Assembly (NCBI GenBank): GCA_049968235.1
Contig: JBMFRC010000002.1
Span: 32,001 to 96,000, forward strand
Length of the DNA: 64,000 nucleotides
Direction: 5' to 3'
Source of the DNA: Candidatus Hydrogenedens sp.
GTDB lineage: Bacteria; Hydrogenedentota; Hydrogenedentia; Hydrogenedentales; Hydrogenedentaceae
Part shown: piece after piece, positions 7,281-59,892 of the stretch
Position numbering within the stretch: the first letter of the stretch is position 1
Layout: each line of letters opens with the position of its first letter
Translations under genes and position numbers: made by a program
Notes under the pieces: model-generated
Database searches by the model: none
What the model saw: only the letters and a program-made list of their open reading frames with translations
What the model was told of the DNA's origin: nothing

Positions 7281-7403
7281 TATTTATTCCAATATAGTTA
7301 GTTAAAGCAAGCCTTTCTATTATTTATTAATACTACCAAATTATCATTTCGTTTTATTTAATATTATATTTTAATCTTTGCCAGATAACTTTGTAAATAT
7401 TTT

Positions 7404-8438: not shown

Positions 8439-9043
8439 GAATGAGGTCCTCCTTTCAAATATTGCAACGATGTCCGTATCAAATCTTCAACACTCGCATT
8501 TTCCCCCAATTGTTGTCTTGCAAATGTAACAGCACTTTTAGCCTCATTTACGGAACAACCCATTGACAACATTGCTTGATAGACTTCATCCCTATCAATA
8601 ACTTTATCTTCCGTAGGACTTAATAAGGCAGATAATTCTGTATCTTCACCCATCTTATTGCGGAATTCTAAAATTAATCGCTGGGCTGTCTTTTTACCTA
8701 TTCCTGGCGCTGTGGCAATTAGATTGTAATCGTTACCCATCACAGCCTGTCGGAATTCATTCACAGAAAGGGTAGATAATACTGCCATTGCCATTTTAGG
8801 TCCTATACCACTTATAGAAATAAGTCTTTGGAAAAGTATCTTCTGCTCATCATTTTCAAAAGCATATATATCAACCGAGTCCTCCCGCCATACCGTATGG
8901 ACAGGAAATATGGCTTCCTCATTCAAATGTACTTTATTCAACAGGTTTACAGGCACATTTAATAAATAACCTACCCCGTGAATATCTAATACCAATGTAT
9001 TTATACGAATCTTTGTTATAACTCCACGAAGGTAATCAAACAT
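8435..9043 (-). CDS. ruvA: Holliday junction branch migration complex subunit RuvA
   Basis: N-terminus [12 protein letters not shown]...[14 protein letters not shown] and [12 protein letters not shown] are RuvA signatures. It is translationally coupled to ruvB. Confidence 0.9.
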
Positions 9044-36824: not shown

Positions 36825-39482
36825 TCAATTCAAATAACCCAGATTTCTCAAAGTCTCCCTTGTTTCATCAGAGATATCCACTACCTTTCTTCCATCCTCT
36901 GTTCCTTTTGAATAGTACTCAACCCAGAAGAAAAATTCTTTTTTATCATTAGAATTGCCTGACTTCTGAACCTTCATATCTTCACTTGAGAAATAGAAAA
37001 ACTTTTCACCTTTTGACTGTAACAGATGATAACTAGAAGGATAACTTATTGCCCAACAATTTTGGATATGAATTTTCAACTCGCTTTTATCTTCTACCGG
37101 CATAATCTGAATTATTGCAGGTATAGAACTTTTTGGAAGAAATACATCTGCCTTCAAATCCATAGGTGTTGTTCTTTCATTTTTTGTCCGTAATACCCCT
37201 CCTTGAATTTTAGAAAATAGAATAGGCACAGAACATTGTATATTTACGGAACCTGTCCAGAAGGATACAGGATTCGAGAAACATAACCACCAACCTTCTT
37301 TTTTTAGTCCAAATTTTTGCATCAATAATATGGACATATCTTTAAATAATTCCGGTTGTTCTAAACTTACATCATAGTATTCTGCCATATTTTTTTGTAA
37401 ATCAAATAAAGATTTAACACCCTTAGGAATATCCTCCAAAAGTTTATACTGCTTTTTTACTAATGCCCTCATATCTCCTCTTAGACTTGATGAGAAAATA
37501 AGTCTTTCAGTCATTTTTTCTTTTGAAATAATATCTAACAAAGATACACCATCTAATGACACATCCTCTTTCTGATTTAATATTTCTAATATAGTAGGCA
37601 TTAAATCTTCCAGTATTACTCTATCTTTCACATGAAGTCCTGCATATTTGTTATTCGGGAATTTGATAATAGTTACATTCCTCATACTCTCCTCATACAC
37701 ATTATCATGTCCGTATAATCCATGTTCCCCTAAAGATTCCCCATGGTCAGAAACAACCGCTATAAAAGCAGAGTCATACAATCCAATGTCTTTTAAAAAA
37801 GCAAAAAAATCTCCTAAAGCATAATCTACTTTATAAACACAGTCATCATAAAGAGCATGAATATATGCAATCTCTTCCTCTGTTGGGTAAACATCCCCGG
37901 TTGCAAGATACTGAAGCAATAGCCCTAACGATGGGATATCTTCACAACCAATATAACCGTTTTCAGGTCTTACCATTCCTCGAGAAAACATTTTAAAATG
38001 TTCCTCACCCGCATCATAAATCAAATTTCCATACGCTTTTGAATGGACATCATAATTATGCATAAAGACAAATATTCGTTGATTTTGTTGATGGGCTATC
38101 CAATCTTTAGTTTCATTACAAACTTCCAATACAGTCCTCCGATTTCCTTCTCTTCCTTCTTCCGGTACAGAAAACAAATCCATTCCTCGTGCAAATCCAC
38201 GAGATGGAATAAACCACCATAAAAACCCCGCAAAACCTGCTGTTGTATATCCATAATCTCTCATCAGTTCAGGCAAGGTTCCCACATAAGGGTAAACATC
38301 TGTATTACGAGTTAAACCATGTCCTTCCGGAAATCGTCCTGTAAGCATGCTCATATGAGCCACAGGGGTAAATGTCTGGGTAGTATATGCATTTTCAAAA
38401 ACAACAGCATCCTTTGCAAAATTATCCAGATTTGGACTTGTAGGCAAATAATATCCATATGGTAGTAAATGGTCGGGTCTTAATGTATCGCAAGAAATAA
38501 TAAAAAAAGGGGGTCCCTTTTGGTTATTTTCAATTGTTGTATTTACAAGCATTGGATTTCCCCATACGCCGAAATCTCCAATGGAATTATTAATTGGGTT
38601 CATCTCAAAAATAAACTCTACCTCCTTACTTTCATATTTATCAAGACTTAATACACCTCTTTTCCATTTCCTATCTTCCTCTGTTACCTGTGGTCGCATT
38701 TCCGCATGATATATCGCATCTGTACTACCATCTGATACTATATGGATTGAAAAGGCTATTCCATCAGTCTGCCAATCTTGGCTTTCAGAAGTTTTCTTAT
38801 AAGCACCCAAAATAGGATTGTATATTCCAATATAAAAAATTAGTTTCATTCCCTGTTCAATTTTCCGAGTAAATATTACCTTTTCGTTCCATAAAACATC
38901 CATACACACACTACCTATTGTTAACTGTCGTGGATGTTTTTTTTCATAAGGCACAAAGTTTACTTTCTCTAAGTTTACTTCCTTCTCATCTGATATTCCT
39001 TGTATTTCTACCCATACCTTATCTACTGTATCAAATATAGGATTCTCTTTATCCGAAAATCTCAAAGCAAAGGAATATGTATGTATCTTCCCATCGTTAA
39101 TCAATCTCATCCCTTCGGAAGGGAAATAAATGTTATCATCCCATTTTTTACTTGACCAACCCCACCTTATTTCAGAACCCTTCTTACTGGATAAATATAT
39201 ATGAACAAATTGATACATTCCCATATCCATAGCGGATGACAGAGAAAATAACAGAATCTTTACATTTGGGTCCAAAGATTTTTTCCATTCTTTTCCCTCT
39301 AATATTAACTCTGGAAACTTTTCTCTTTTTTCCCAATATTCCTTCGAGAAACGGAATATGTCATCACCCCATGAGACACAACATATTGGTATAACAAACA
39401 TAAAAATAAAAACAATAAGAAGGGGAGTTTTCCTGTGAAAAAAAGAAACTATAGGTTTTTCTTTATATATATACTTATTCAT
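36825..39482 (-). CDS. Large secreted sulfatase-fold (alkaline phosphatase superfamily) protein without the C-x-P-x-R FGly motif, carrying an unknown ~300-aa N-terminal domain
   Basis: N-terminal TM/signal. FFIISCDTLRPDHL metal-binding block. SPNLDNFAKDAVVFENAYTTQTFTPVAHMSMLTG has Thr where the Cys/Ser nucleophile normally sits. The N-domain has the conserved RWGWSS motif. Paralog of the next gene. Confidence 0.7.
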   Translation of the reverse strand: MNKYIYKEKPIVSFFHRKTPLLIVFIFMFVIPICCVSWGDDIFRFSKEYWEKREKFPELILEGKEWKKSLDPNVKILLFSLSSAMDMGMYQFVHIYLSSKKGSEIRWGWSSKKWDDNIYFPSEGMRLINDGKIHTYSFALRFSDKENPIFDTVDKVWVEIQGISDEKEVNLEKVNFVPYEKKHPRQLTIGSVCMDVLWNEKVIFTRKIEQGMKLIFYIGIYNPILGAYKKTSESQDWQTDGIAFSIHIVSDGSTDAIYHAEMRPQVTEEDRKWKRGVLSLDKYESKEVEFIFEMNPINNSIGDFGVWGNPMLVNTTIENNQKGPPFFIISCDTLRPDHLLPYGYYLPTSPNLDNFAKDAVVFENAYTTQTFTPVAHMSMLTGRFPEGHGLTRNTDVYPYVGTLPELMRDYGYTTAGFAGFLWWFIPSRGFARGMDLFSVPEEGREGNRRTVLEVCNETKDWIAHQQNQRIFVFMHNYDVHSKAYGNLIYDAGEEHFKMFSRGMVRPENGYIGCEDIPSLGLLLQYLATGDVYPTEEEIAYIHALYDDCVYKVDYALGDFFAFLKDIGLYDSAFIAVVSDHGESLGEHGLYGHDNVYEESMRNVTIIKFPNNKYAGLHVKDRVILEDLMPTILEILNQKEDVSLDGVSLLDIISKEKMTERLIFSSSLRGDMRALVKKQYKLLEDIPKGVKSLFDLQKNMAEYYDVSLEQPELFKDMSILLMQKFGLKKEGWWLCFSNPVSFWTGSVNIQCSVPILFSKIQGGVLRTKNERTTPMDLKADVFLPKSSIPAIIQIMPVEDKSELKIHIQNCWAISYPSSYHLLQSKGEKFFYFSSEDMKVQKSGNSNDKKEFFFWVEYYSKGTEDGRKVVDISDETRETLRNLGYLN

Positions 39483-39488
39483 ATCTGG

Positions 39489-42083
39489 CTATAAATATCC
39501 TGCATTCTTTATATTAGATATAGCATCTTCGGGTAGTTCAATTTCCTTCCGTTCATTTTCATTCGTTAATGGTTTTTGACGAATGAATATATATGTATTA
39601 CCATCGTTGAGAATATCAGGTATATTTTCCCAATACAAATTTTCTCCAGGTAATATAAATTCATACTCACTTACTAGTTCACTAATTCTATCTCGAGAAA
39701 CTACTTTAAATTTCTCCGGACTTCTAAAACCTATTCTTAATTCCTGTTTCATATCTTTCGGATATACATATAGGGAATAAGTATCTGCAATTTGTGGATA
39801 ACTTATGGTTCCATATAAACAATCCATTTTCTCCGCTTTCTTATACCAGAACATTATATTATCGGGTATCACCGAAATCAGATTGGGTCCGGGACATATA
39901 AATACCTCATCAGGAATATTTGTTTTTTTCCCTTTCATCTCGATAACCCAACCTTCTCCACTAAAAAATCTATAGGAACTCATTTCCGCTAAAAATTGTT
40001 TTACAAGGATATTTTCCTTTTCAAAAAGATTGACACATTCTGCCGGGTCCTGTAATAAATCAAAAAAACTCACCTTTGATTCTCTAAAAGAACAAATAAC
40101 CTTATGTTTATCCGATATGAGGGCTTCTTCATTCTGATATTGATTCTGAACGAAAATTTTCCTTGGAGTATTATATTCTCCTTCTATAATCTTAGACAGG
40201 GATACGCCATCCAGATTTTCATAGCTTATATTTAAATTATCCAGTATCGTAGGGACAATATCTTCTAAACAAACCAGATTTTCTATTCGTCTCCCGGCAT
40301 ATATAGCATTGGGGAACTTTATCATCATAGGAACTCGTGCAGTATGTTCATATACATCTACATGCTCATAACGACCATGTTCCCCTAATGCTTCTCCGTA
40401 GTCAGCAATCACTACAATAACAGATTTATCATACAAACCCTGTTCTTCCAAAAAATTAAACAGGTCACCTAACGCGTAATCTACTTTTGCAACGCAATCA
40501 TCATATAACGCATTGATATATAAATTTTCGTAAAAACCTAATTTCCCTAATGTTGCCTGTATGTGGTTAAAAAAACTTCTTGGATTAGGCATACATTCCG
40601 CTGTTAATAATTCAGGAACTTCGAGTATATCGCTGAAGAAAAAAAATCGAGCGTCTTCAGAACTATATATTGTCGCAGGGGGAAACATTCGGGTATGCAC
40701 ATCATAATTGTGTAAAAACACGAAAAGATTGTTATATTTCATCTTTTTTATTTCGTTCTTTAATATTTCTTGTGTAGAAAAAACATCGCGTAGATATTCT
40801 GGTGGATAAAAGAAACTATCCATCCCTCGCATATACCCTCTGGAAGGCAAAAACCATGTCGTTGCTCCTACCAATCCTATGGAATAGTACCCTAATTCTT
40901 TTAAATATTCTCCCAATAACTTAACATTATCATAAGCAGGAAGTTCTGCATTAACTCCATGGTTCTTCGGGAATAGCCCCGTTAAAAGACTCATATGAGC
41001 CACTGGAGTAAAGGTGCGTGTTGTATATGCTCGTTCAAATAATACTGCCTCCTTTGCAAATCTATCCAGATTTGGACTTGTTGGCAATGAATAACCATAT
41101 GGTAACAAATGGTCTGCTCGCATTGTATCGCAAGAAATAATAAATACGGGCGGATATTGCTTTGTTGTATCATCGTCATTTCGAATAATGATAGGATTAC
41201 CCCATAACCCATATTCTTCAGGAATATTTATCGCTGTTTTTTTGGTAAAAACAATTTGTACTTCTTTCCCTGCAAATTTTGATAGGTCTAATTCTGTAAA
41301 TCGCCATCCCTGGTCATCCTCTTTTTCCATCGGATTCATCTGATGTTCATATATATGTTCTTTTCTCTCATCACACGATACATCAATGGAAAAAGTATAT
41401 TTTTGTTTACTCCATTCTTGAACATACTTCTTCTGAGATAATGCTCCTACCTTTAGGTTATATATACCTGTATACAGTAGTAATCTATCCCCTGTTTGTA
41501 TTTTTGTAGTAAATGTCCAGATATCCTCAGGAATACAATTCATACATAATCCATTAAGCATAAATTGTCCCAATTCTGAAGGCAAATATCTAACTAATTC
41601 AACATTTTTCAATTGCAACCCATTATTAATCTTTTCTAAATTTGCAACTTCAATAATAAATTTATTGGCACTATCAACTATAGGGTTGATTTTATCAGGA
41701 TATTTAATTTCAAAAGTATATTGATGTAATTTGCCATCTGCAATCAGAGGAAGCTTATCTTCAGAAAAAGAATTCGGTCCTTCTTTATTTGCAGAACTCC
41801 ATCCCCATCGGATAAAAGCATTTTTGTCTGAAACCATCTCTATTTTTATTAGTTTGTATAAACTTAAATCTAAATGTATTTCATATTCAAAAAGAATCTT
41901 TCCTACCTCGCTTTGCTTCATCTGCCATTGTTCTCCGGAAATAGTTAAGTCAGTTCTCGGAAACTTATCATTCCAATATTTATCCGTTAGTCGAATGACC
42001 AATCCATAAGATTCCGACCACAAAAATACACTTATAAAGAGAACTTTTATTCCTATCTTGATATTTACATATCTGTTAAACAT
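39489..42083 (-). CDS. Paralogous large secreted sulfatase-fold protein lacking the FGly motif, with the same unknown N-terminal domain
   Basis: VFIISCDTMRADHL, SPNLDRFAKEAVLFERAYTTRTFTPVAHMSLLTG, RWGWSS in the N-domain. Same architecture and collinear similarity to the 36825..39482 product. Confidence 0.7.
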   Translation of the reverse strand: MFNRYVNIKIGIKVLFISVFLWSESYGLVIRLTDKYWNDKFPRTDLTISGEQWQMKQSEVGKILFEYEIHLDLSLYKLIKIEMVSDKNAFIRWGWSSANKEGPNSFSEDKLPLIADGKLHQYTFEIKYPDKINPIVDSANKFIIEVANLEKINNGLQLKNVELVRYLPSELGQFMLNGLCMNCIPEDIWTFTTKIQTGDRLLLYTGIYNLKVGALSQKKYVQEWSKQKYTFSIDVSCDERKEHIYEHQMNPMEKEDDQGWRFTELDLSKFAGKEVQIVFTKKTAINIPEEYGLWGNPIIIRNDDDTTKQYPPVFIISCDTMRADHLLPYGYSLPTSPNLDRFAKEAVLFERAYTTRTFTPVAHMSLLTGLFPKNHGVNAELPAYDNVKLLGEYLKELGYYSIGLVGATTWFLPSRGYMRGMDSFFYPPEYLRDVFSTQEILKNEIKKMKYNNLFVFLHNYDVHTRMFPPATIYSSEDARFFFFSDILEVPELLTAECMPNPRSFFNHIQATLGKLGFYENLYINALYDDCVAKVDYALGDLFNFLEEQGLYDKSVIVVIADYGEALGEHGRYEHVDVYEHTARVPMMIKFPNAIYAGRRIENLVCLEDIVPTILDNLNISYENLDGVSLSKIIEGEYNTPRKIFVQNQYQNEEALISDKHKVICSFRESKVSFFDLLQDPAECVNLFEKENILVKQFLAEMSSYRFFSGEGWVIEMKGKKTNIPDEVFICPGPNLISVIPDNIMFWYKKAEKMDCLYGTISYPQIADTYSLYVYPKDMKQELRIGFRSPEKFKVVSRDRISELVSEYEFILPGENLYWENIPDILNDGNTYIFIRQKPLTNENERKEIELPEDAISNIKNAGYL

Positions 42084-51139: not shown

Positions 51140-54100
51140 TTAATTTGCCGGACCTACACCAAAGCCATCTTCTCCAACAGAATCGATATGATAACCGCCA
51201 GCATTAAAGAATTGAATTAATCGCAATAATTCAGTAAAGTCTATTTTCCAATTCTTAGGATTATAATCGGATGTGTGATAATTACAACTATGATTTACCC
51301 CATCACCAACATCATATCCATCTTCTGTAGATGTCGATACATCCGCACAGTGATATCCGAATGAATTAAAGAACTGAATTACACGCAATAACTCACGGAG
51401 TTCTATCTTCCAATTCCCGTTTACATCCGCACTATGTCGGGAAGGAGGTTCTCCTTCAGATACACCTTCTACAGTTCCTTCTCCCTCAGGCACACCTTCA
51501 GGACTTCCTTCTTCATTCGAAATCACAGTTGCAACCACAGGATAGACGAGCATATTGGGTCCACCTGTAAACGATACAATAGCAAGGTATTCCCCTGAAG
51601 AAAGGTCATTTGCACAGAATCTCACAACTATGGACTGGCTTTCTCCCGGAGCAAGATTATAATTATAATCAGAGGTAATTTGGAACACATCTGCTGATAA
51701 CTCTGGAGCACTTATTATCGCATTTCCTATCAAAGCAGATGTACTCAATTCAGAATTCATTATAGCAAATGTCCCTTCCACGCACTCACCCGCATTTACC
51801 TCACCTAGATCCAATACATAAGGATTAATAACTGGAACAACAATACTTTGTTCCCCCTCAGTTACTCCTTCGGGTTCGATAGGAAGAAACATTGCTTTTA
51901 GAACTGTATTTTGACTAATACTGAATGTTACAGGATTAGCTGTCCCAGCAAACTGCCCATTAATCGTCCAGCCCTGCCAGATATCTTTCGACGAATTATA
52001 AGTAGCCTGTGCGGTTACTGTGGTTCCAAAATAATAATACCCGGGCTGTAAACCTTCACTACTTTCAGGTGATACCTGAACTGAAACAGGAGCGGTATTC
52101 CCCTCTGTTACCACAGATAATTGATACATCGGTAAAATCTCACCTTCATTTGTCTCACTAAAGCATGGAGCACCACAGCCACCTCCATTACTCTTTGCCG
52201 TTGGGTCAACTGCAGAAACTACAAAGGTGATAATACTTTCTCCACTTTCATTGAAGGTAGCATTATATTCCGCTAAATTACAAACCCTATCTCCATCCGC
52301 ATCACCAAACGCACCTAAATACTGACTTGCAGAAGTATCCACCTGGTTTACTATGAAAGATATCCCTACCTGTCCTGCTATTTGAGAAAGCATTGATAAT
52401 GAAATACCTTCTCCCAATGTGGCTATTCCTGTAAATAATGCCTTCAACTGATTTACATCCACTTTTGATAAAATATTTTGAGGGATTACTCCCTGTGATA
52501 CCGCAGTATCAATTATATTCGTAAACAAGGCATAATTGCTTTGCCATGCAGACAATACACAACAACGGTTCTGAACACCCGGGTTCGCCAATATAATATC
52601 CAGAAGTTGCAATTGAGCAGACTCCACCATTTGATTACCATCGAAATCTGTTGTAATCGAATTAATACTCATCATTGAACAATATGCTTCCCACGCATTC
52701 CGGGCATTCCCTTGAACTCCAATATTACCACATGAGGTAATAGCACACGGTACTGGACAACCTTCAGGAATTTCTCCTTCACCCTCTACAATACCTTCAG
52801 TAGATCCTTCAGCGGAACCTTCTCCTTCAAAATTACCTTCGGGGAGCCCTTCAACAGTTCCCTCAGGTTCAATACACGGAGCATAACGGGACAGGTCACT
52901 TTCCTTATATTCAGAAGGAACTCCCTTTCCTGCTGAAATACCTGCTAATCCATCATACGCTTCTATATTTAACCACGTTATCGCAATCCGACCATCAAAG
53001 AACATCTCTATCTGGAAACTGGCTGTATCATTTGTAAAGTTACCATCAACCTTAACCTCATGATAGGTCACAACGAAACGGTCATCCAACTGCTTCCACC
53101 AGATTTGTCCGCCATCATTCGGTTTCAGATTATCAAACAGACCTGAAACACGCGGTATACGGAAATGATTTTCCGGTGATTCCTTATTCTCGGTATCCCC
53201 TTCTGTAAACGTTAAATAACCATTACTACCTATAAATACACGGTCATAAGCCACTCCATAAAGAATAACCTGTTTCCCGTCTGCCAGAGGTACCTCGACA
53301 TAGGCATCATCACCTAAACTGACCGGTGTTGAAAGTATCGAATCTACCGGGTAATCTGTAATCCCCGTAATAGTGCATGCAAAATAACCGTTAGCATTAT
53401 TCGCCGGAGTTAAAAGTAACCGTTTATTATCCAAGTCATTGTCAACAACAAAGTCTTCTGTAAACCAATCCGTTGCAGGTTGAGAGGGTGGACCGGAGGT
53501 AAAATTCACCTCACAAGGACGGAATTCTAAATCTAAGGGTCCGTTAAACGGGGACCAGGGTATCGTCATAATGGGTAAATCCCACCGACCTCCAAAAATA
53601 CTAATAAATACATTCGGATAAAACTTAACCGTTAAAATAAGGTTACAAATTTCATTATAGTTCATCACAGAGCGATAGCCATCTTCACCTACTTGTACGG
53701 GTACGGATTGTCCCTCCTCCCAGAATAATAAACCTTCCTGTAAACTTATAGTATCACATTCCAGGGAACCATTTGCATCCGCTGAAACATCAATACCTGC
53801 CCCTGATGAAAAAGGAATCCACTTTAACCAGTCCGGTAAAGTAACACCTACTAAGTTCAATATTACTTTTACAAGGTCCACATCAAACAAATGCGTTTTA
53901 GGTGTATTATCTTGAATCGTAGAGGCAGTATCTAACAAAAAACTATTAAAATAATCATATGCAGTTGTACGAAATTCCACATCAGGAATGTAAGGAACAT
54001 CTACTGTAAACGGAGGAATAATTCCTATATCAAACCCCGCTTTCATGAGCAATTCCGCTCCGAAATCATACCCCCAGAAGCCACTGGCATTACCTGCTGT

Positions 54101-54943
54101 TAACCATGGCGGATTTAAATGGAAAAAGCCCTGCACATCCGCCTGGTAATTAGCAACTGCTGCAGCGCGAATACGCACCTGAACTGGAAATCCTCCCGGA
54201 TTTTCCTCAAATCCACCCTCTCCTTTACCATTAGGCCACCAGCCTGAATCAAAACTTAGGTTTAACCCTTTCATTGGTGCGGTAAACTGGACAGGTTGCG
54301 TTTCTACTGCTTTACCTAAGTCTCCCTTTACATCAACCTTAACTATCTCTTCAACACCACCTGTAACAGTATATTCTGTATTAATTGATTTCATACCCGA
54401 ACAGGGTTCTAACACTTGTACAATAACTCCAGACTTCCCATCCTGTTGATAATCCCAGCGAATTAAAACGGGACGAACCCCATTTTCCGAATAAATCTCT
54501 TTCCTCTGCTCTACATATAAAAGTTTATCTTTCAAAAAACATTTCGTCTCACTTACACCTTCATTCCCTTTCGTTTGAACAATAGACCATTCTAAAGAAA
54601 TGTTTTCTAATTGCAATCGAAAATTCTTGCTACCATCGTTTGACATTATCTTTTCCGTCTTATCAAAATATTTCTCTAATAATGCACGATTCATTGAAGT
54701 AAAGCCAGGAAAGCCAACTCCTTGTTTACCGAATTGCATTATACTTCGACGAACAACGCCATCTTCGCTGAATTCCACATATTCCAGAGAACCCTCTTCT
54801 CTTGCTAACAACTGAAGTTTTGCATCAGGAGGAATATTATCTCCTTCCCAGCGTGCTGAATATACCCAGTATGATTCTGTAAAACCAACAGCAGAAATAC
54901 ATACAATAAGAATTAATGCAAACATTAACTTCTTGTATTCCAT
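51140..54943 (-). CDS. Giant secreted multidomain protein (1267 aa) with Glu/Gly-rich linkers and two C-terminal dockerin-like repeats
   Basis: Signal peptide. EG-rich linkers EGTVEGLPEGNFEGEGSAEGSTEGIVEGEGEIPEG and EGSPEGVPEGEGTVEGVSEGEP. C-terminal repeats DVNGNWKIELRELLRVIQFFNSFGYH and NPKNWKIDFTELLRLIQFFNAGGYH. An internal D-x-D-G-D site, GDADGDRVCNLAEY. Confidence 0.6.
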   Translation of the reverse strand: MEYKKLMFALILIVCISAVGFTESYWVYSARWEGDNIPPDAKLQLLAREEGSLEYVEFSEDGVVRRSIMQFGKQGVGFPGFTSMNRALLEKYFDKTEKIMSNDGSKNFRLQLENISLEWSIVQTKGNEGVSETKCFLKDKLLYVEQRKEIYSENGVRPVLIRWDYQQDGKSGVIVQVLEPCSGMKSINTEYTVTGGVEEIVKVDVKGDLGKAVETQPVQFTAPMKGLNLSFDSGWWPNGKGEGGFEENPGGFPVQVRIRAAAVANYQADVQGFFHLNPPWLTAGNASGFWGYDFGAELLMKAGFDIGIIPPFTVDVPYIPDVEFRTTAYDYFNSFLLDTASTIQDNTPKTHLFDVDLVKVILNLVGVTLPDWLKWIPFSSGAGIDVSADANGSLECDTISLQEGLLFWEEGQSVPVQVGEDGYRSVMNYNEICNLILTVKFYPNVFISIFGGRWDLPIMTIPWSPFNGPLDLEFRPCEVNFTSGPPSQPATDWFTEDFVVDNDLDNKRLLLTPANNANGYFACTITGITDYPVDSILSTPVSLGDDAYVEVPLADGKQVILYGVAYDRVFIGSNGYLTFTEGDTENKESPENHFRIPRVSGLFDNLKPNDGGQIWWKQLDDRFVVTYHEVKVDGNFTNDTASFQIEMFFDGRIAITWLNIEAYDGLAGISAGKGVPSEYKESDLSRYAPCIEPEGTVEGLPEGNFEGEGSAEGSTEGIVEGEGEIPEGCPVPCAITSCGNIGVQGNARNAWEAYCSMMSINSITTDFDGNQMVESAQLQLLDIILANPGVQNRCCVLSAWQSNYALFTNIIDTAVSQGVIPQNILSKVDVNQLKALFTGIATLGEGISLSMLSQIAGQVGISFIVNQVDTSASQYLGAFGDADGDRVCNLAEYNATFNESGESIITFVVSAVDPTAKSNGGGCGAPCFSETNEGEILPMYQLSVVTEGNTAPVSVQVSPESSEGLQPGYYYFGTTVTAQATYNSSKDIWQGWTINGQFAGTANPVTFSISQNTVLKAMFLPIEPEGVTEGEQSIVVPVINPYVLDLGEVNAGECVEGTFAIMNSELSTSALIGNAIISAPELSADVFQITSDYNYNLAPGESQSIVVRFCANDLSSGEYLAIVSFTGGPNMLVYPVVATVISNEEGSPEGVPEGEGTVEGVSEGEPPSRHSADVNGNWKIELRELLRVIQFFNSFGYHCADVSTSTEDGYDVGDGVNHSCNYHTSDYNPKNWKIDFTELLRLIQFFNAGGYHIDSVGEDGFGVGPAN

Positions 54944-55165
54944 TGCAACTCTCCTTTATATTTTTTATTGATTTGTATTAAATTTCTTAATCCCTCAAAC
55001 ATAATTCTAAAACCACAAAACCATAAATACCATAAAAATTGACCTTTTATATAATCTTACCATTATTTTATACAAATTTCAATTTTTTTATGACAAATTT
55101 TTATTTTGATAAAAGAATAAAATAAGGTGTATGATAAATTAAACAGAAAAAGAAGGAGTACTGCA

Positions 55166-55498
55166 ATGATTAAAGATAGAATTGTTCGTATAAAGATGAA
55201 AAAGAATTTCAAGGAACAAAAGCCCTTTTCTTTCGTTGGGAAAATAACCCTCTGGTCTGAAAATTGGATAGCCTTAGAAGGAAAAGGAATTATGTTAACC
55301 CGTCAGCAGTCCAGTGGGGTACAAATAGATGAAGGAATTAAAGTTCTTTTAATCCCTCGTGAAAGCATTGACCATATACAGGTATTGCCAGATAATTTTG
55401 ATATAACCCAATTAAAAGTTACCACTGAAGGACAACAATTAGTTTTAGTAATTGATGGGAAACGCGATTCTATCCTTGGAGAAATGGGAGAAGGATAA
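55166..55498 (+). CDS. Hypothetical small protein (111 aa from the ATG with an AAGGAG RBS; the ORF track starts at a GTG at 55127)
   Basis: AAGGAG lies 7 nt upstream of the ATG at 55166. No recognisable motif. Divergent from the large secreted gene. Confidence 0.4.
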   Translation: MIKDRIVRIKMKKNFKEQKPFSFVGKITLWSENWIALEGKGIMLTRQQSSGVQIDEGIKVLLIPRESIDHIQVLPDNFDITQLKVTTEGQQLVLVIDGKRDSILGEMGEG

Positions 55499-55518: not shown

Positions 55519-56085
55519 TTAACCAGTAGACACACGCTCGATATACTTACCTGTTCGAGTATCTATTTTTATAACATCACCTTCTTTAATAAAGAGGGGA
55601 ACCTGTATTTTTGCACCACTTTCCAGAGTACAGAATTTTAATACATTTGTAGCGGTATCTCCACGCACAGCAGGTTCCGCAGAAACAACTTTTAATTCAA
55701 CAAACGGTGCCATTTCCGCAATAATAGGTTTATCTTCCAGAAAGTAAATAGAGCATAAATCGGACTCTTTCAAAAATTTCTTCTGCTCACCTAACATTTC
55801 TTCAGGAATAAAGGTCTGTTCATAAGTTTCTAAGTCCATAAAATAAAGGAGACCTTCCGACTCATAAAGATATTGCATCTTCCGCTCCAGCAACATTACT
55901 TCCTCCACTTCATCGGACATGCGAAAAGTTACATCCATTGTCCTTCCTGTTTTTACATTCTTTAATTTCGTTTTTAACATGGCTCGCCAATTACCGGGAG
56001 TAATATGTTGGAACTCCACAACTACCCAGATATCTCCTTCATAACGAATTGCCATTCCTCTGCGAAAACCAGAAACAGAAATCAT
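55519..56085 (-). CDS. efp: Elongation factor P family protein (EF-P/EfpL-like) with an atypical beta3-beta4 loop
   Basis: Fits EF-P over its 188 aa, for example the GDTATN...LESGAKIQVPLFIKEGDVIKIDTRTGKYIERV C-terminal block. The loop reads FQHITPGNWRAMLKTKLKN in place of KPGKG or SGRN. Confidence 0.78.
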   Translation of the reverse strand: MISVSGFRRGMAIRYEGDIWVVVEFQHITPGNWRAMLKTKLKNVKTGRTMDVTFRMSDEVEEVMLLERKMQYLYESEGLLYFMDLETYEQTFIPEEMLGEQKKFLKESDLCSIYFLEDKPIIAEMAPFVELKVVSAEPAVRGDTATNVLKFCTLESGAKIQVPLFIKEGDVIKIDTRTGKYIERVSTG

Positions 56086-56209: not shown

Positions 56210-59047
56210 ATGAATTTTATAGTCTTCATTCCGTTGCTACTTCATCTCCTTCATTTCCCACAAATAAACAATCCTTTTGAAAATGCACATTTAATCATAG
56301 ACCCACGTATGAAAGATGTTATCCCTAATAACAATTTCATGACGAACACAAAAAATGACTGGATAAAAGACAGTCCCCACCAGATACATACACTATTCAG
56401 AAAAATTTTTGTTGTTGAAAAATTTCCTAAATTGGCAGAGATATATATTACTGCAGATGACTATTTTAAACTCTATATAAATGGTGAACATATTTTAGAA
56501 GGTCCAACAAACGGTTATCCTTTTGCCTACCCTTATTTTAAGTTTAACCTGACCCCATTCATTAGGACAGGGACAAATATACTGGCTATTCACACATATT
56601 ACAGAGGGTTAATAAATCGTGTTTGTGTCAGTGGTGATAATCGTTCCGGGCTTATCTTGAAACTTATACTTACCGATATGGAGGGACGAAAAACAGAGAT
56701 TGTATCTGATACAACATGGAAATGCTTCCCTCTGGATGCATTTATTACGACTGACACTATAGGTTATAAAACACAATTCATTGAGAATATAGATATGCTA
56801 AAATACCCAAAAGACTGGCAATCCCTTGATTTCGATGATAGCCACTGGATAAACCCCGAATTAGGAAAAAGTGACTACACTTTTGTTGACTTACCTGCAA
56901 AACCATTAGAAATAAAAAATGTTTTCCCCAAAGAAAAGAAAAAAATTAATTCAGGACATTTCATTTTTGATTTCGGTCGCGAAGTCGTTGGATACACGAG
57001 AATAAAAACTAGGGGTGAAAGAGGACAAAAAATGATAGTTTATCATGGGGAAGAACTGGATGAAAACGGATATGTCCGCTGGCAAATGCGAGCATACTGT
57101 GATTACAAAGAAGAAATCATTTTATCCGGTGAAGAAGATATTTCTCCTTTCTATGAATACCGTGCCTTTCGATATATTGAATTGGATAATGCTCCCGAAG
57201 AAACCTCCGTATGGGTTGAAGAACGCCATTACCCATTTGACACCACAAAAGTTCTCTTTTATTCTTCAGATAAGGATTTAACAAATATATGGGATATTTG
57301 TCAATTGGGAGTTCGACTTTGCTCGCAAGAAGGCTTTTTGGATTGTCCTTCCCGTGAAAAAGGACAATATTTAGGAGATGCAGTTATTACATCTCGTTCC
57401 TTTATGTGGCTTACAGGAGATACTTCATTAACAAAAAAATCATTAATAGATTTTTCTCTTTCAACAAAAATAGATCCTGGTCTAACAGCGGTTGCACCTT
57501 CCGGGTTTATTCAAGAACTTGCCGAATACTCCCTTCAATATCCATTAATGCTATGGGAATACTATCGTCATTCCGGTGACAAAGATTTTCTAAAAGCAAT
57601 GGCAACAGAATGTTTACCATCACTCCTATACTATTTTGCACAGTTTGAAAATGAATCCGGCTTATTAAACTCTACCGGGAAAAAACCTATTTTGATTGAT
57701 TGGCCCAAAAACCTTCGTGATAATTTCGATTATGATTATGCCCAGAACAAACCTAATGCGGTCGTTAATGCTTTTTATTACGGAGCCGTTACAACAACAC
57801 TGGAAATACAAAAGACGCTCGGCATAGAAGACACTGCACTCAAAGAAAAAGCAGAAAAAATATGGAATGGCTATCAAAAAATCTTTCTGGACTCTGAAAA
57901 GAAACTTTATAAAGATGCTCCAAACTCGAAACATTATGCTCTGCATAGCAATGCTCTACCTCTCTACTTTGGATTGGTAAAAGATGAAAAAGTAAAAGAA
58001 AATATTTTCTCTTTAATTGAACAAAAAGGACTTTACTGTGGTGTTTATATCGCATCTTACATCATTGAAGCATGCTTCAAAGAAGGAAATCCCGAATTAG
58101 GATGGAAACTATTAACAAACAACACAGAATATTCATGGAAGGAAATGCTTCGCAATGGGGCTACTTCCTGCCTTGAAGTGTGGAAACCCGAAATGAAATC
58201 AAATATGAGTTGGTGTCATGCATGGAGTAGTTGCCCTATTTATCTCTTATCGGAATATGTATTAGGTCTAAAAATCGGCAAACCCGGCTGGGAAGAAATC
58301 CACTTCTCCCCAGCAAAAATAAACGATTTACCCGATATGTTTCTCATTAAACCCTTACCTGATGGAGGTTATTGCTCTGTGAATATAAAAAACAATAACT
58401 ATAACCTGACCGTTCCTGAGAATATTCATGTAATAACAGATGGTGTGCAGTGTGGAAATATTTCTGTTCATACTGTTTTATCTCACCAAAGTCCGACAGA
58501 ACTATCCGAAGAAGAAAAGACACTACTGAAAAATTATCAGTGGGACATAAAGACAGAAAACACTCGAGGAATTTGGGTTTCTATCAAAAAACAAAAATTA
58601 TATGTAATTGAAAAAAACAAAGTAGTATGGCAAACTCTTTGTTCCACTGGGATAAAAGGAATAGGTGAAAAATTAGGTTCCGAACAAACCCCCAGAGGGT
58701 GGCATCAAATTGTTGAAAAAATTGGTGACAATGCCCCATGGGGACAAATCTTTCGCAATCGTCAACCCGTAGGGATATGGGATAAAAGTCAGATTACAGA
58801 TGAATCCCTTGTCCTAACTCGAATACTGCGTCTTGATGGCTTGGAAGAAACAAAGAATAAAGGTATTAATAACGAAGGAGAAATTGTAGATTCGTATCAA
58901 CGATTCATTTACATTCATGGCACCAATAAAGAAGAACTTATAGGCACTCCTTTTACACGTGGTTGTATCGGTCTAACTAATAATGATGTGATTATGCTCT
59001 ACAACATTGTTCCCCTCAACACGAAAGTTCTTATTACAGAAGAATAA
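56210..59047 (+). CDS. Fusion protein: GH78-like alpha-L-rhamnosidase (six-hairpin glycosidase) region plus a C-terminal L,D-transpeptidase (YkuD) domain
   Basis: N-domain AEIYITADDYFKLYINGEHI matches the rhamnosidase N-terminal beta-sandwich. DCPSREKGQYLGDA matches the GH78 DCPxRE...GD block. The C-terminus from about 58550 carries the YkuD motif TPRGWH...IYIHGTNKEELIGTPFTRGCIGLTNNDVIMLYNIVPLNTKVLI. Confidence 0.65.
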   Translation: MNFIVFIPLLLHLLHFPQINNPFENAHLIIDPRMKDVIPNNNFMTNTKNDWIKDSPHQIHTLFRKIFVVEKFPKLAEIYITADDYFKLYINGEHILEGPTNGYPFAYPYFKFNLTPFIRTGTNILAIHTYYRGLINRVCVSGDNRSGLILKLILTDMEGRKTEIVSDTTWKCFPLDAFITTDTIGYKTQFIENIDMLKYPKDWQSLDFDDSHWINPELGKSDYTFVDLPAKPLEIKNVFPKEKKKINSGHFIFDFGREVVGYTRIKTRGERGQKMIVYHGEELDENGYVRWQMRAYCDYKEEIILSGEEDISPFYEYRAFRYIELDNAPEETSVWVEERHYPFDTTKVLFYSSDKDLTNIWDICQLGVRLCSQEGFLDCPSREKGQYLGDAVITSRSFMWLTGDTSLTKKSLIDFSLSTKIDPGLTAVAPSGFIQELAEYSLQYPLMLWEYYRHSGDKDFLKAMATECLPSLLYYFAQFENESGLLNSTGKKPILIDWPKNLRDNFDYDYAQNKPNAVVNAFYYGAVTTTLEIQKTLGIEDTALKEKAEKIWNGYQKIFLDSEKKLYKDAPNSKHYALHSNALPLYFGLVKDEKVKENIFSLIEQKGLYCGVYIASYIIEACFKEGNPELGWKLLTNNTEYSWKEMLRNGATSCLEVWKPEMKSNMSWCHAWSSCPIYLLSEYVLGLKIGKPGWEEIHFSPAKINDLPDMFLIKPLPDGGYCSVNIKNNNYNLTVPENIHVITDGVQCGNISVHTVLSHQSPTELSEEEKTLLKNYQWDIKTENTRGIWVSIKKQKLYVIEKNKVVWQTLCSTGIKGIGEKLGSEQTPRGWHQIVEKIGDNAPWGQIFRNRQPVGIWDKSQITDESLVLTRILRLDGLEETKNKGINNEGEIVDSYQRFIYIHGTNKEELIGTPFTRGCIGLTNNDVIMLYNIVPLNTKVLITEE

Positions 59048-59276: not shown

Positions 59277-59316
59277 GACGCCATAAAAGACCCAATATTA
59301 TGGCGTCCTTCTTTTT
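59277..59316 (+). terminator. Rho-independent terminator candidate in the long intergenic region after the GH78-LDT gene
   Basis: GACGCCATAA, an 11-nt loop, then TTATGGCGTC: a perfect 10-bp stem. It is followed by CTTCTTTTTAT. Confidence 0.55.
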
Positions 59317-59379
59317 ATGCCTTTCAATTCATATATCCTTTATAATTTCAATATTATCTAAATACAGACCATTTAAACT

Positions 59380-59892
59380 ATGATAAGAACAAAATATTTC
59401 CTTTATTTCTTGATATTAATACTCCTGTTCAGTTCGTGTGCTCGACAAAGGCACAGAGTTACCTTTCAGTCTCCTTTTCAAGGTAGAGAACAGGAAACCT
59501 GGGGTTATCCCCTACCCGAAACATCTTTACAGATTACCTCTCCTTTTGGAGAAATTCGTAAAAAAAGAAACTTATCTTACTGGCATCAAGGAATTGACAT
59601 AAAAGCCAGGAAAGGAACTCCTGTGCTGGCAGTACAAAAAGGTATTGTAACTTTTGCCGGAAAGTCAAAAAACTATGGGTTATTGGTTTGTATAGAACAT
59701 TCAGGACTATGGGAATCCAGATATGCGCATCTCAACACTATTGAAGTGAAAAAAAATAAAAAAGTGAAGAAAGGAGAGGTCATCGGAAGAGTTGGAGAGA
59801 CCGGAAATGCAACGGGTCCCCACCTTCATTTTGAACTAAGGAAAAATGGAGTACCTGTTAATCCTGCTTCCTTGCTTCCAATAAAATACTGA
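59380..59892 (+). CDS. M23 family metallopeptidase (LytM domain) lipoprotein
   Basis: Lipobox LFSSC. HQGIDIKARKGTPV, YAHLNTIEV and GETGNATGPHLHFELR are the M23 His/Asp zinc motifs. Confidence 0.85.
   Translation: MIRTKYFLYFLILILLFSSCARQRHRVTFQSPFQGREQETWGYPLPETSLQITSPFGEIRKKRNLSYWHQGIDIKARKGTPVLAVQKGIVTFAGKSKNYGLLVCIEHSGLWESRYAHLNTIEVKKNKKVKKGEVIGRVGETGNATGPHLHFELRKNGVPVNPASLLPIKY

What the first reader, a model, noticed from the sequence alone, without database searches (positions are those of the whole stretch)
56210..59047. Glycoside hydrolase (GH78-like rhamnosidase) fused to an L,D-transpeptidase domain
The first ~780 residues carry the alpha-L-rhamnosidase N-terminal beta-sandwich and the six-hairpin block DCPSREKGQYLGDA. 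The last ~160 residues are a clear YkuD L,D-transpeptidase domain (HGT...TRGCIGL with catalytic His and Cys). I know of no standard architecture that joins a glycan-cleaving module to a peptidoglycan cross-linking or anchoring enzyme in one polypeptide. The likeliest roles are coupling envelope glycan remodelling to peptidoglycan attachment, or tethering the hydrolase covalently to peptidoglycan. An M23 peptidase gene follows after a terminator.
Basis: partly seen in the sequence, partly recalled or inferred. Interest (0 to 1): 0.6.

Follow-up and report, generated by a model that had tools for sequence, protein, structure and literature searches.

The report
Rhamnosidase fused to cell-wall peptidase
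This is a real single gene, shared across the uncultured bacterial phylum Hydrogenedentota, that joins an exported sugar-cleaving enzyme (a GH78 rhamnosidase) to a small enzyme that acts on cell-wall peptides; the two parts seem to work separately, so it is an undescribed but moderately interesting variant of known enzymes.

Summary
Window 56210-59047 (+) is one uninterrupted 945-aa ORF. It carries three GH78 Pfam domains, all four RhaB-type acidic catalytic residues, and a C-terminal YkuD domain with its catalytic His and Cys. It is not a frameshift artefact: 106 of the best 120 homologue clusters have the same architecture, and every full-length genome match is a Hydrogenedentota MAG. AlphaFold models it as one rigid body (pLDDT 93.3, pTM 0.93).

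The YkuD module belongs to the ElsL-like branch (ElsL is a cytoplasmic L,D-carboxypeptidase), but here it sits behind an added export leader. The two modules are separable. Close relatives split the gene twice into a GH78 gene plus a leaderless YkuD gene, both still under purifying selection. YkuD-less GH78 paralogues exist. Many leader-bearing relatives keep a perfect YkuD site on a GH78 body that has lost its catalytic motifs.

Best reading: an exported bifunctional protein. The GH78 body is an active rhamnosidase that also carries an ElsL-type L,D-peptidase, most likely a carboxypeptidase. The M23 neighbour is not conserved. This is a new variant of known kinds.

The parts
56210..59047 (+). 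Whole fusion gene, 945 codons plus stop
   Evidence: Uninterrupted ORF. 100% identical protein in an NCBI Candidatus Hydrogenedens MAG, and 106 of the best 120 homologue clusters share the architecture.
56210..56272 (+). Hydrophobic N-terminal leader (residues 1 to about 21), a probable Sec signal peptide; atypical because its n-region has no Lys or Arg
   Evidence: pLDDT 56-63 with a short helix at residues 6-13. 87% of 101 homologues have a strongly hydrophobic stretch just before the conserved D-x-F-x-x-A-x-W motif. Firmicutes and Spirochaetes homologues lack this segment, while other diderm-lineage homologues have canonical K/R + hydrophobic + AxA leaders at the same place.
56429..56860 (+). 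GH78 N-terminal beta-sandwich domain (residues 74-217)
   Evidence: PF08531, 6.1e-13, 49.4 bits against a cut-off of 25.
56939..57205 (+). GH78 concanavalin-like domain (residues 244-332)
   Evidence: PF05592, 6.2e-18.
57254..58261 (+). GH78 (alpha/alpha)6 catalytic domain (residues 349-684)
   Evidence: PF17389, 3.7e-40. Foldseek top hits are all GH78 rhamnosidases: 2OKX 3.8e-49, then 6I60, 3W5N, 6GSZ.
57341..57382 (+). Acid motif DCPSREKGQYLGDA (D378, E383, D390)
   Evidence: Aligns residue for residue with RhaB D567, E572 and D579. Conserved in 99, 100 and 99 of 101 fused homologues.
58175..58225 (+). E656 (aligns with RhaB E841) through the SWCHAW segment (H670, W672)
   Evidence: E656 and H670 are invariant in 101 of 101, W672 in 99 of 101. 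Alignment to RhaB.
58268..58474 (+). GH78 C-terminal beta-sandwich (residues about 687-755)
   Evidence: Beta strands at 687-755 in the model. PF17390 is detected in homologues. This element is retained in all the reduced-scaffold relatives.
58496..58555 (+). Helical lead-in LSEEEKTLLKNYQWDIKTEN (residues 763-782); it belongs to the exported YkuD subfamily and is not a mere linker
   Evidence: Helices at 767-775 and 778-782. The same L[ST]...L...GW..[RK].G...WVS[VI] element precedes the YkuD core in split, stand-alone, reduced and membrane-fused relatives.
58568..59035 (+). ElsL-like YkuD catalytic domain (residues 787-942)
58916..58975 (+). Catalytic motif H903-G-T ... T916-R-G-C919-I-G921-L
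   Evidence: H903, G904, T905, G918 and C919 are invariant in 101 of 101. Position 921 is Arg in 93, Cys in 7 and Gly only in the window. The window's differences are clean point substitutions.
59277..59320 (+). Terminator-like hairpin and T-tract downstream of the gene
   Evidence: Perfect 10-bp inverted repeat GACGCCATAA/TTATGGCGTC with an 11-nt loop, then CTTCTTTTTAT.

Best explanation
The gene encodes an exported, most likely periplasmic, two-enzyme protein typical of the phylum Hydrogenedentota.

Residues about 22-755 form a complete RhaB-type GH78 exo-alpha-L-rhamnosidase. It probably trims rhamnose from imported or envelope glycans.

Residues about 763-945 form an ElsL-like YkuD cysteine L,D-peptidase, packed rigidly onto the C-terminal end of the GH78 body. 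It attacks the mDAP-D-Ala bond of peptidoglycan tetrapeptide stems through Cys919 and His903. The most likely activity is L,D-carboxypeptidase (tetrapeptide to tripeptide). Transpeptidation is not excluded.

The two sites most likely act on different substrates. The fusion looks like a historical capture early in the phylum. A normally leaderless, cytoplasmic ElsL-type domain became attached behind a secreted GH78, which gave it a signal peptide and a structural platform. Since then the YkuD module has been the constant part. The GH78 body has stayed active in most lineages, including this window. In others it has decayed to a scaffold or been lost, and in a few the YkuD gene has been split off again.

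Shown: the architecture, conservation of catalytic residues, the leader as an add-on, separability of the modules, and the rigid model. Inferred: the compartment, both substrates, and carboxypeptidase rather than transpeptidase.
For: Architecture and reality.

GH78 module is intact. D378, E383, D390 and E656 align with RhaB D567, E572, D579 and E841 and are 98-100% conserved. The fold matches only GH78 rhamnosidases at the top. dN/dS is about 0.05-0.08.

YkuD module. His, Gly, Thr, Gly and Cys are invariant in 101 of 101. ElsL model scores: 118 bits for the window, 124 for split forms, 105-137 for exported stand-alone forms, 179-185 for leaderless gammaproteobacterial proteins, 92-96 for Verrucomicrobia-labelled leaderless proteins, and 25 or less on E. 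coli Ldt models. ElsL is a demonstrated tetrapeptide-specific L,D-carboxypeptidase that depends on its Cys (PMC8649774).

Export. The hydrophobic leader is absent from Paenibacillus, Clostridia and Spirochaetes homologues and canonical in Kiritimatiellia, Rhodopirellula, Omnitrophota, Lentisphaeria and unfused Hydrogenedentota homologues. The phylum is predicted to be Gram-negative with mDAP-type peptidoglycan (PMC11406978).

Rigid unit: pLDDT 93.3, pTM 0.93, and the YkuD region at 90 or above.

Separability. There are two independent gene splits: an overlap type in L001-L003, and a stop + GAGG spacer + ATG type in L005 and L085. Their YkuD products are leaderless, and YkuD dN/dS is about 0.085-0.11. 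Unfused paralogues. Exported stand-alone YkuD relatives are not next to GH78 genes.

YkuD is the constant part. Complete leader-bearing proteins have a truncated or degenerate GH78 body with no DCPSRE or WCH[PA]W motif but a perfect HGT..SHGCIRL. They align collinearly with the window protein: P0254 to residues 399-945 at 2e-70, and P0252 to residues 61-944 at 1e-139.

Other points. In the YkuD tree the leaderless ElsL-like proteins fall outside one clade holding all exported forms. Catabolic setting: tandem sulfatases in the window, GH42 next to the gene in relatives, and Hydrogenedentes reported as enriched in CAZymes for sulfated and acidic polysaccharides (PMC12555021).
Against: No biochemical data exist for any member.

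The window's leader has no Lys or Arg in its n-region, unlike other leaders in the same window, and no signal-peptide predictor was available. Compartment is therefore inferred.

The window's YkuD motif has Gly where 93 of 101 relatives have Arg, so this particular copy may be weakened.

Long-term retention of both active sites in 99 of 101 fused sequences, together with a rigid interface, could equally mean the sites cooperate.

Both trees are neighbour-joining without support values, so the single origin and the order of losses are tentative.

The organisms behind the reduced-scaffold forms were not identified.

Confidence: 0.5

Rival explanations
1. The two active sites cooperate on one composite substrate. 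An example would be a rhamnose-containing glycopolymer or decoration attached to Hydrogenedentota peptidoglycan, with glycan trimming and stem-peptide processing coupled.
For: Both catalytic sites are conserved in 99 of 101 fused sequences. The modules are modelled as one rigid body with pTM 0.93. The fusion has persisted across the deep branches of a phylum.
Against: The gene was split twice, giving a leaderless YkuD that remains under selection. YkuD-less GH78 paralogues exist. YkuD is retained on GH78 bodies that have lost their catalytic motifs, on a membrane protein, or alone. No neighbours are conserved, and none are for rhamnose or wall-polymer synthesis. The closest GH78 relatives outside the phylum are in typical glycan degraders, many of them leaderless.
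Confidence: 0.12
2. The YkuD module is an anchor. It binds peptidoglycan stem peptides or forms a covalent thioester or transpeptidation link with them, which holds the rhamnosidase at the sacculus.
For: The protein is exported. YkuD chemistry proceeds through a covalent acyl-enzyme on the stem peptide (established knowledge of the family). The attachment to the GH78 body is rigid.
Against: An anchor has no purpose once its cargo is dead or gone, yet the YkuD site is perfectly conserved on degenerate scaffolds and in leader-bearing stand-alone forms. Split YkuD genes are leaderless and still constrained, so they cannot anchor a periplasmic partner. Unfused GH78 paralogues with leaders work without an anchor.
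Confidence: 0.1
3. The YkuD module is a true L,D-transpeptidase, making 3-3 cross-links or attaching envelope proteins to mDAP, rather than a carboxypeptidase.
Confidence: 0.2
4. In this particular genome the YkuD module is catalytically impaired or a pseudo-enzyme, because the conserved Arg two residues after the catalytic Cys is Gly.
For: Position 921 is Gly only in the window. It is Cys in the 7 closest relatives and Arg in 93 of 101. Three substitutions cluster in the motif relative to the nearest relative.
Against: His903, Gly904, Thr905, Gly918 and Cys919 are intact. YkuD dN/dS between the window and L001 is about 0.11. The published family motif allows this position to vary (motif as quoted in bioRxiv 10.1101/2020.02.18.954545). 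From my own recollection, not checked here, LdtMt2 has Asn at this position.
Confidence: 0.15
5. The fusion is an assembly or frameshift artefact that merged two adjacent genes.
For: Close relatives do carry the two parts as separate adjacent genes.
Against: The window ORF is continuous. 106 of the best 120 clusters from many independent assemblies and sources have the same fusion. The junction region is conserved and confidently modelled. The split forms are the derived state in the tree.
Confidence: 0.01

Closest known systems
RhaB, the GH78 alpha-L-rhamnosidase of Bacillus sp. GL1 (PDB 2OKX), and other solved GH78 enzymes (6I60, 3W5N, 6GSZ, 3CIH)
   Same: The beta-sandwich, (alpha/alpha)6 and C-terminal beta-sandwich domains match. 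The four acidic residues align exactly. It is the best sequence hit (1.1e-36) and the best fold hit (3.8e-49).
   Different: Only about 18-23% identity. The solved GH78 enzymes listed carry no YkuD domain. The window protein has an export leader and a rigidly attached C-terminal peptidase module.
ElsL (LdtK) of Acinetobacter baumannii, the cytoplasmic cell-wall-recycling L,D-carboxypeptidase (PMC8649774)
   Same: It is the best-matching curated model for the C-terminal module: 118 bits over profile positions 7-160 of 164. That exceeds the 92-96 bits of Verrucomicrobia-labelled leaderless proteins, a group the ElsL paper counts among ElsL orthologues. The catalytic Cys and His are present.
   Different: ElsL is a leaderless, single-domain, cytoplasmic protein of about 164 aa. 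Here the domain is fused behind a leader-bearing 755-aa GH78 body and has an extra N-terminal helical lead-in. The score is far below the model's 270-bit cut-off. In the tree, exported forms make their own clade apart from the leaderless ones.
Csd6 (H. pylori), Pgp2 (C. jejuni) and Bd1075 (Bdellovibrio): periplasmic YkuD-fold L,D-carboxypeptidases
   Different: From my own knowledge, their accessory domain is NTF2-like and not a glycosidase. Sequence similarity is marginal: the Pgp2 profile E-value is about 3e-4.
Classical L,D-transpeptidases (E. coli LdtA-E and YcbB, Ldtfm, LdtMt2, B. subtilis YkuD)
   Different: E. coli Ldt models score 25 bits or less against cut-offs of 480-583, and only over the last 45 residues. 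None is fused to a glycoside hydrolase.
Bifunctional cell-wall enzymes that join a glycosidase or amidase to a peptide-active module, such as endolysins and autolysins, and PDB 4XXT, a Zn-amidase/YkuD fusion
   Same: One polypeptide carries two hydrolytic modules, at least one acting on peptidoglycan peptides. 4XXT shows that YkuD can occur in fusions.
   Different: In those proteins both modules act on peptidoglycan. GH78 enzymes are rhamnosidases with no known peptidoglycan substrate.

Membership tests
Glycoside hydrolase family 78 (alpha-L-rhamnosidase) | Significant match to the GH78 catalytic (alpha/alpha)6 domain and its flanking beta-sandwich domains | tested here: met
   PF17389 138.7 bits (cut-off 24.5), PF05592 65 bits, PF08531 49.4 bits.
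Glycoside hydrolase family 78 (alpha-L-rhamnosidase) | Acidic active-site residues equivalent to RhaB D567, E572, D579 and E841 | tested here: met
   D378, E383, D390 and E656 align exactly and are 98-100% conserved in 101 homologues. The role of the RhaB residues is from my knowledge of the RhaB mutagenesis literature, not from a paper read here.
Glycoside hydrolase family 78 (alpha-L-rhamnosidase) | GH78 three-dimensional fold | tested here: met
   Foldseek top 11 hits are all rhamnosidases: 2OKX 3.8e-49 with TM 0.67, then 6I60, 3W5N, 6GSZ, 3CIH and others.
Glycoside hydrolase family 78 (alpha-L-rhamnosidase) | Hydrolysis of terminal alpha-L-rhamnose | not testable with these tools
   Needs an enzyme assay.
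YkuD / L,D-transpeptidase catalytic domain (PF03734) | HMM match above the gathering score, and the YkuD fold | tested here: met
YkuD / L,D-transpeptidase catalytic domain (PF03734) | Catalytic His and Cys in the motif H-x(14-17)-[ST]-x-G-C-h | tested here: met
   H903 ... T916-R-G-C919-I. His, Gly and Cys are invariant in 101 of 101. Motif as quoted in bioRxiv 10.1101/2020.02.18.954545.
YkuD / L,D-transpeptidase catalytic domain (PF03734) | Conserved Arg (sometimes Asn) two residues after the catalytic Cys | tested here: not met
   Gly921 in the window, Cys in the 7 closest relatives, Arg in 93 of 101, reached by point substitutions. The importance of this residue is from my own knowledge; a search for Arg141 plus YkuD found no held paper.
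ElsL class of cytoplasmic L,D-carboxypeptidases | Score at or above the curated NF040925 cut-off | tested here: not met
   117.9 bits against a cut-off of 270. It is nevertheless the best model by far, and the score is higher than that of Verrucomicrobia-labelled leaderless proteins at 92-96 bits.
ElsL class of cytoplasmic L,D-carboxypeptidases | Leaderless single-domain protein of 105-200 aa, cytoplasmic (criteria of PMC8649774) | tested here: not met
   The window protein is 945 aa with a hydrophobic leader and GH78 domains. The split relatives P0121-P0123 do meet this criterion.
ElsL class of cytoplasmic L,D-carboxypeptidases | Cys-dependent cleavage of tetrapeptide to tripeptide, with no activity on pentapeptide | not testable with these tools
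   Needs muropeptide assays. The catalytic Cys is present.
Classical E. coli-type L,D-transpeptidases (LdtA-E) | Match to curated equivalog models | tested here: not met
   24.7 bits or less against cut-offs of 480-583, over residues 898-944 only.
Csd6/Pgp2-type periplasmic L,D-carboxypeptidases | YkuD domain combined with an NTF2-like accessory domain | tested here: not met
   Pfam finds only the GH78 domains and YkuD. The fold resemblance is limited to the YkuD core.

The most novel reading that the evidence does not exclude
The rigid pairing of an active rhamnosidase with an active L,D-peptidase reflects a real joint substrate or a self-anchoring mechanism. In the first case, Hydrogenedentota peptidoglycan, or a polymer attached to it, carries rhamnose that must be removed together with stem-peptide processing. 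In the second, the YkuD module covalently fixes the glycosidase to the sacculus. The first would point to an unknown wall modification; the second would be a new way of retaining periplasmic enzymes.
Probability: 0.1. Interest if true: 0.8.

Novelty: new variant of a known kind. Interest (0 to 1): 0.42.

Why it matters
Both modules belong to well-known families, but I found no paper describing their union. It is the standard state of this gene in an uncultured phylum.

It shows that the ElsL branch of YkuD enzymes, so far known only as a leaderless cytoplasmic recycling carboxypeptidase, also has an exported clade. In that clade the domain rides on another enzyme.

The family also gives a clear natural series: an active glycosidase carrier, then a catalytically dead scaffold, then loss or replacement. 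There are also two reversions to a separate leaderless gene. This is useful material for studying how enzymes become scaffolds and how compartment switches are tolerated.

For annotation, the current public names ("family 78 glycoside hydrolase catalytic domain", or only "L,D-transpeptidase") each hide half of the protein.

Tried and rejected
- **Conserved neighbourhood.** tblastn of the window's neighbours against 24+ related loci, plus all-vs-all ORF clustering of 14 distant fused loci, found no conserved partner. The efp synteny holds only in the close Hydrogenedens clade, and M23 appears nowhere else.
- **EF-P rhamnosylation link.** I considered a link between the "rhamnosidase" and the adjacent efp gene and dropped it. 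The synteny is local only, and the protein carries an export leader.
- **Programmed frameshifting in the L001-type split.** The overlap has no slippery or shift-prone sequence on inspection. The second split type has a stop, a spacer with GAGG, and an ATG. I therefore treat both as true gene splits.
- **Compensated frameshift at the catalytic motif.** Rejected; the changes are three point substitutions.
- **afdb50 fold search** for other fusions: the library was unavailable.
- **Taxonomy of the reduced-scaffold forms.** The cluster look-up gave no organism names, and a scaffold-only homology search returned just one further protein.
- **Literature.** Searches for YkuD + rhamnosidase, transpeptidase + GH78, and YkuD + glycoside hydrolase + domain architecture found nothing relevant.
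- **Window-wide annotation.** No rhamnose catabolism or peptidoglycan-recycling genes turned up.


Full report

Yes. Window 56210-59047 (+) is one ATG-initiated ORF of 945 codons with no internal stop. Pfam places Bac_rhamnosid_N at residues 74-217, Bac_rhamnosid at 244-332, Bac_rhamnosid6H at 349-684 (3.7e-40) and YkuD at 787-942 (9.3e-21). All score far above their gathering cut-offs.

The downstream gene (59380-59892) is an M23 peptidase (2.3e-36). A terminator-like hairpin separates the two genes: a perfect 10-bp inverted repeat at 59277-59307 followed by a T-tract. The consensus scanner missed it because the loop is 11 nt.

The protein is 100% identical to one from an NCBI MAG of Candidatus Hydrogenedens sp..

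**2. Not an artefact, and not rare.**

Of the best 120 homologue clusters, 106 carry both GH78 and YkuD domains. They run down to 40% identity, come from NCBI, JGI, ENA and Logan assemblies, and nearly all named ones are Hydrogenedentes/Hydrogenedentota.

In a scan of one genome per GTDB species, every match covering residues about 1-945 is a Hydrogenedentota MAG. Two carry "Nitrospir-" bin labels, but one of those (L005) has the window's efp synteny and an EF-P 89% identical to the window's. Outside the phylum, matches stop at residue about 740-758. These GH78-only hits come from Paenibacillus, Clostridia, Kiritimatiellia, Lentisphaeria, Rhodopirellula, Omnitrophota and Cytophagia at 37-42% identity.

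AlphaFold2 with a 101-sequence alignment gives mean pLDDT 93.3 and pTM 0.93. The YkuD region scores 90 or above, and only residues 1-20 and a short stretch around 741-750 score lower. So the two modules are predicted to form one rigid body.

**3. The GH78 module.**

The best sequence and fold matches are all GH78 alpha-L-rhamnosidases: RhaB 2OKX (1.1e-36; Foldseek 3.8e-49), then 6I60, 3W5N, 6GSZ and 3CIH. D378, E383, D390 and E656 align with RhaB D567, E572, D579 and E841, the acidic residues I recall from the RhaB mutagenesis work. Across 101 fused homologues these are D 99, E 100, D 99 and E 101 of 101. H670 is invariant. By every sequence and fold criterion available, the window's GH78 part is an intact member of the family.

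**4. The YkuD module.**

By sequence it belongs to the ElsL-like branch. NCBI's ElsL model gives 117.9 bits over almost its full length, whereas E. coli Ldt models give 25 bits or less over the last 45 residues. On the same model:
- leaderless gammaproteobacterial proteins score 179-185 bits;
- Verrucomicrobia-labelled leaderless proteins score 92-96 bits;
- split forms score 124 bits;
- exported stand-alone relatives score 105-137 bits.

The ElsL paper counts leaderless proteins from Gamma/Betaproteobacteria and Verrucomicrobia as ElsL orthologues. ElsL itself is a leaderless cytoplasmic enzyme that converts tetrapeptide to tripeptide and needs its Cys (PMC8649774).

One caveat applies to this window. 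The residue two positions after the catalytic Cys is Gly here, Cys in the seven closest relatives and Arg in 93 of 101. The change arose by clean point substitutions.

**5. Compartment.**

M1 is the only possible start. Residues 1-16 are hydrophobic and poorly modelled. Across the family, 87% of sequences have a strongly hydrophobic stretch just before the conserved D-x-F-x-x-A-x-W-L-R-D-P motif. Ten of the 13 exceptions have fewer than 20 residues before the motif, which is consistent with truncated start calls.

Comparison with homologues outside the phylum is informative. Paenibacillus, Clostridia and Spirochaetes proteins start directly at that motif with no leader. Kiritimatiellia, Rhodopirellula, Omnitrophota and Lentisphaeria proteins, and the unfused Hydrogenedentota paralogues, carry canonical K/R + hydrophobic + AxA leaders there. 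The leader is therefore an added export signal.

The phylum is predicted to be Gram-negative with LPS and mDAP-type peptidoglycan (PMC11406978), so the protein should be periplasmic. The window's clade is atypical in having no Lys or Arg in the leader, and no signal-peptide predictor was available.

**6. The modules are separable.**

(a) Split genes. In L001-L003 (75% identical, same hypothetical-efp-GH78 synteny, three independent assemblies), the gene is a 761-aa GH78 plus an overlapping 191-aa YkuD gene. In L005 and L085 it is a 757-aa GH78, a stop codon, a 35-43 nt spacer with GAGG, and the ATG of a 176-aa YkuD gene. These split YkuD proteins have no leader. Even so, both halves remain under purifying selection. 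For L005 against L085, dN/dS is about 0.05 for GH78 and 0.085 for YkuD. For the window against L001 it is 0.078 and 0.112. dS is near saturation, so these values are approximate.

(b) YkuD-less GH78 paralogues with leaders exist. P0111 at L004 has no adjacent YkuD gene, and L007 has one in tandem with a fused copy.

(c) Leader-bearing stand-alone YkuD relatives (P0124-P0129) are not next to GH78 genes.

(d) An exhaustive search of 1.84 billion representative proteins with the YkuD module found complete, leader-bearing proteins whose GH78 body is truncated or degenerate:
- 866 aa (P0252), 796 aa (P0272) and 699 aa (P0256);
- about 560-600 aa (P0254, P0263, P0270, P0273, P0282);
- 419 aa (P0245);
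- P0260, in which the YkuD follows a hydrophobic N-terminal region that reads as a multi-pass membrane protein, with no Pfam match outside YkuD.

None of these keeps DCPSRE or WCH[PA]W, and all keep HGT...SHGCIRL. Direct alignment proves the scaffolds are GH78-derived. P0254 is collinear with window residues 399-945 (2e-70), with a gap exactly over the E656/WCHAW region. P0252 is collinear with residues 61-944 (1e-139), with the acid motif replaced. Two otherwise full-length fused proteins (P0113, P0119) are intermediates with a decayed acid motif.

**7. History (tentative; neighbour-joining trees without support values).**

In the GH78 tree the fusion is on both deep branches. The split forms and the YkuD-less paralogues nest inside fused clades. 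In the YkuD tree the leaderless ElsL-like proteins fall outside a single clade that contains every exported form: fused, split, reduced, membrane-fused and stand-alone.

The helical segment that looks like a linker (residues 763-782) is conserved in all exported forms and so belongs to this YkuD subfamily.

The simplest scenario has two steps. An ElsL-type domain was captured once behind a secreted GH78. After that the YkuD module stayed constant while the carrier stayed active, decayed, or was lost or replaced.

**8. Mechanism.**

I commit to the following, at confidence about 0.5. The protein is exported and has two independent activities. The GH78 body removes terminal alpha-L-rhamnose from glycans. 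This fits the catabolic setting: tandem sulfatases in the window, GH42 next to the gene in relatives, and Hydrogenedentes being enriched in CAZymes for sulfated and acidic polysaccharides (PMC12555021). The YkuD module uses Cys919 and His903 on the mDAP-D-Ala bond of tetrapeptide stems.

I favour L,D-carboxypeptidase over transpeptidase for two reasons. The module's nearest characterised relative is ElsL. The leaderless split versions are still under selection, and in the cytoplasm only hydrolysis makes sense. The same product (tripeptide) is useful whether it is made in the periplasm or the cytoplasm, which would explain why the change of compartment is tolerated.

The rigid interface and the long co-retention of both active sites remain in their favour.

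**9. Neighbours.**

The efp adjacency holds only in the close clade. The M23 gene occurs next to the fusion in no other locus. No other neighbour is conserved. The window's M23 is a small lipoprotein-type peptidoglycan endopeptidase whose best model is Pgp3 at 96.6 bits against a cut-off of 300. It sits behind its own promoter-like site. Its presence next to a YkuD-fold enzyme recalls the Helicobacter and Campylobacter stem-trimming set, but without conservation this is most likely coincidence.

**10. Novelty and score.**

Both families are known, and the combination is already machine-annotated in public databases under names that hide one half. I found no paper that describes it. I rate it a new variant of a known kind with interest 0.42. 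It is solid and phylum-wide, and it offers an instructive enzyme-to-scaffold series and an exported clade of the ElsL branch. It does not overturn anything or open a long-standing question. The most novel reading still allowed is a joint substrate or self-anchoring, at about 0.1 probability.

Noticed in passing
L001:6001-8842; L005:1979-4824; L085:2684-5531: The fusion gene has been split into two genes at least twice in close relatives. One split has a 20-nt overlap with the YkuD gene in the +1 frame. The other has a stop, a 35-43 nt spacer with a GAGG site, and an ATG. The YkuD products are leaderless but still under purifying selection, so after the split the two products should end up in different compartments.
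   Followed up: yes
Proteins P0252, P0272, P0256, P0254, P0263, P0270, P0273, P0282, P0245 (found with window 58472-59044 as query): These are complete leader-bearing proteins in which the GH78 body is truncated or has lost its catalytic motifs, while the YkuD site is perfectly conserved. Together they form a natural series from active enzyme to scaffold. The source organisms were not identified.
   Followed up: partly
Protein P0260 (725 aa): The same exported YkuD module, with its helical lead-in, follows a long hydrophobic N-terminal region that reads as a multi-pass membrane protein, then a Pro/Ala-rich linker. This is a different carrier for the same module. Pfam detects only the YkuD domain.
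   Followed up: no
window 55519-56085 (-): Elongation factor P gene divergent from the fusion gene (TIGR00038, 230 bits). Its loop reads ITPGNWRA, which by eye seems to put Asn where the modified Lys or Arg sits in well-studied EF-Ps. I did not verify this by alignment. The adjacency to a rhamnosidase gene holds only in the close clade and is probably coincidental.
   Followed up: partly
window 51140-54943 (-): A 1267-aa leader-bearing protein with no Pfam family. It has acidic EG-rich repeats (EGxxEGE) and two C-terminal copies of a motif, NWKI(E/D)..ELLR.IQFFN. It is conserved at 71-78% in close relatives, and the C-terminal motif also matches in the distant locus L009 (13262-13600).
   Followed up: partly
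window 55127-55498 (+): A small ORF (123 aa from GTG, 110 aa from ATG) between the 1267-aa gene and efp. It has no family match but is 78% identical in L001 and L002, and a 110-aa gene is called at the same position in L091, so it is probably a real gene of unknown function.
   Followed up: partly
window 59380-59892 (+): A small M23 peptidoglycan endopeptidase with a lipoprotein-like leader (…LLFSSC). Its best NCBIfam model is Pgp3, well below the cut-off. Close relatives have a GH42 gene on the opposite strand at this position instead, so the region downstream of the fusion has been rearranged in this genome.
   Followed up: partly
window 36825-39482 and 39489-42083 (-): Two tandem large sulfatases (885 and 864 aa), each with an N-terminal extension of about 310-325 residues that has no family match. 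This is consistent with a lifestyle of degrading sulfated glycans.
   Followed up: no
L005 (CAZZMK010000203.1) and L014 (CAZLBS010000002.1): These MAG contigs are labelled "uncultured Nitrospirales" and "Nitrospiraceae" but carry the Hydrogenedentota-type gene. L005 also has the window's efp synteny, with an EF-P 89% identical. The bin labels are probably wrong.
   Followed up: partly
L007:3469-5745 and 6007-8874: An unfused GH78 paralogue lies in tandem directly upstream of the fused gene. In the NJ tree it groups beside a clade of fused copies, which suggests duplication followed by loss of the YkuD part.
   Followed up: partly
L021-L023, L028 (Omnitrophota, Rhodopirellula, Kiritimatiellia): In the neighbour-joining tree, leader-bearing GH78-only genes from these other diderm-type phyla nest inside the Hydrogenedentota fused clade. 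This could mean horizontal transfer with loss of the YkuD part, or it could be a tree artefact.
   Followed up: no
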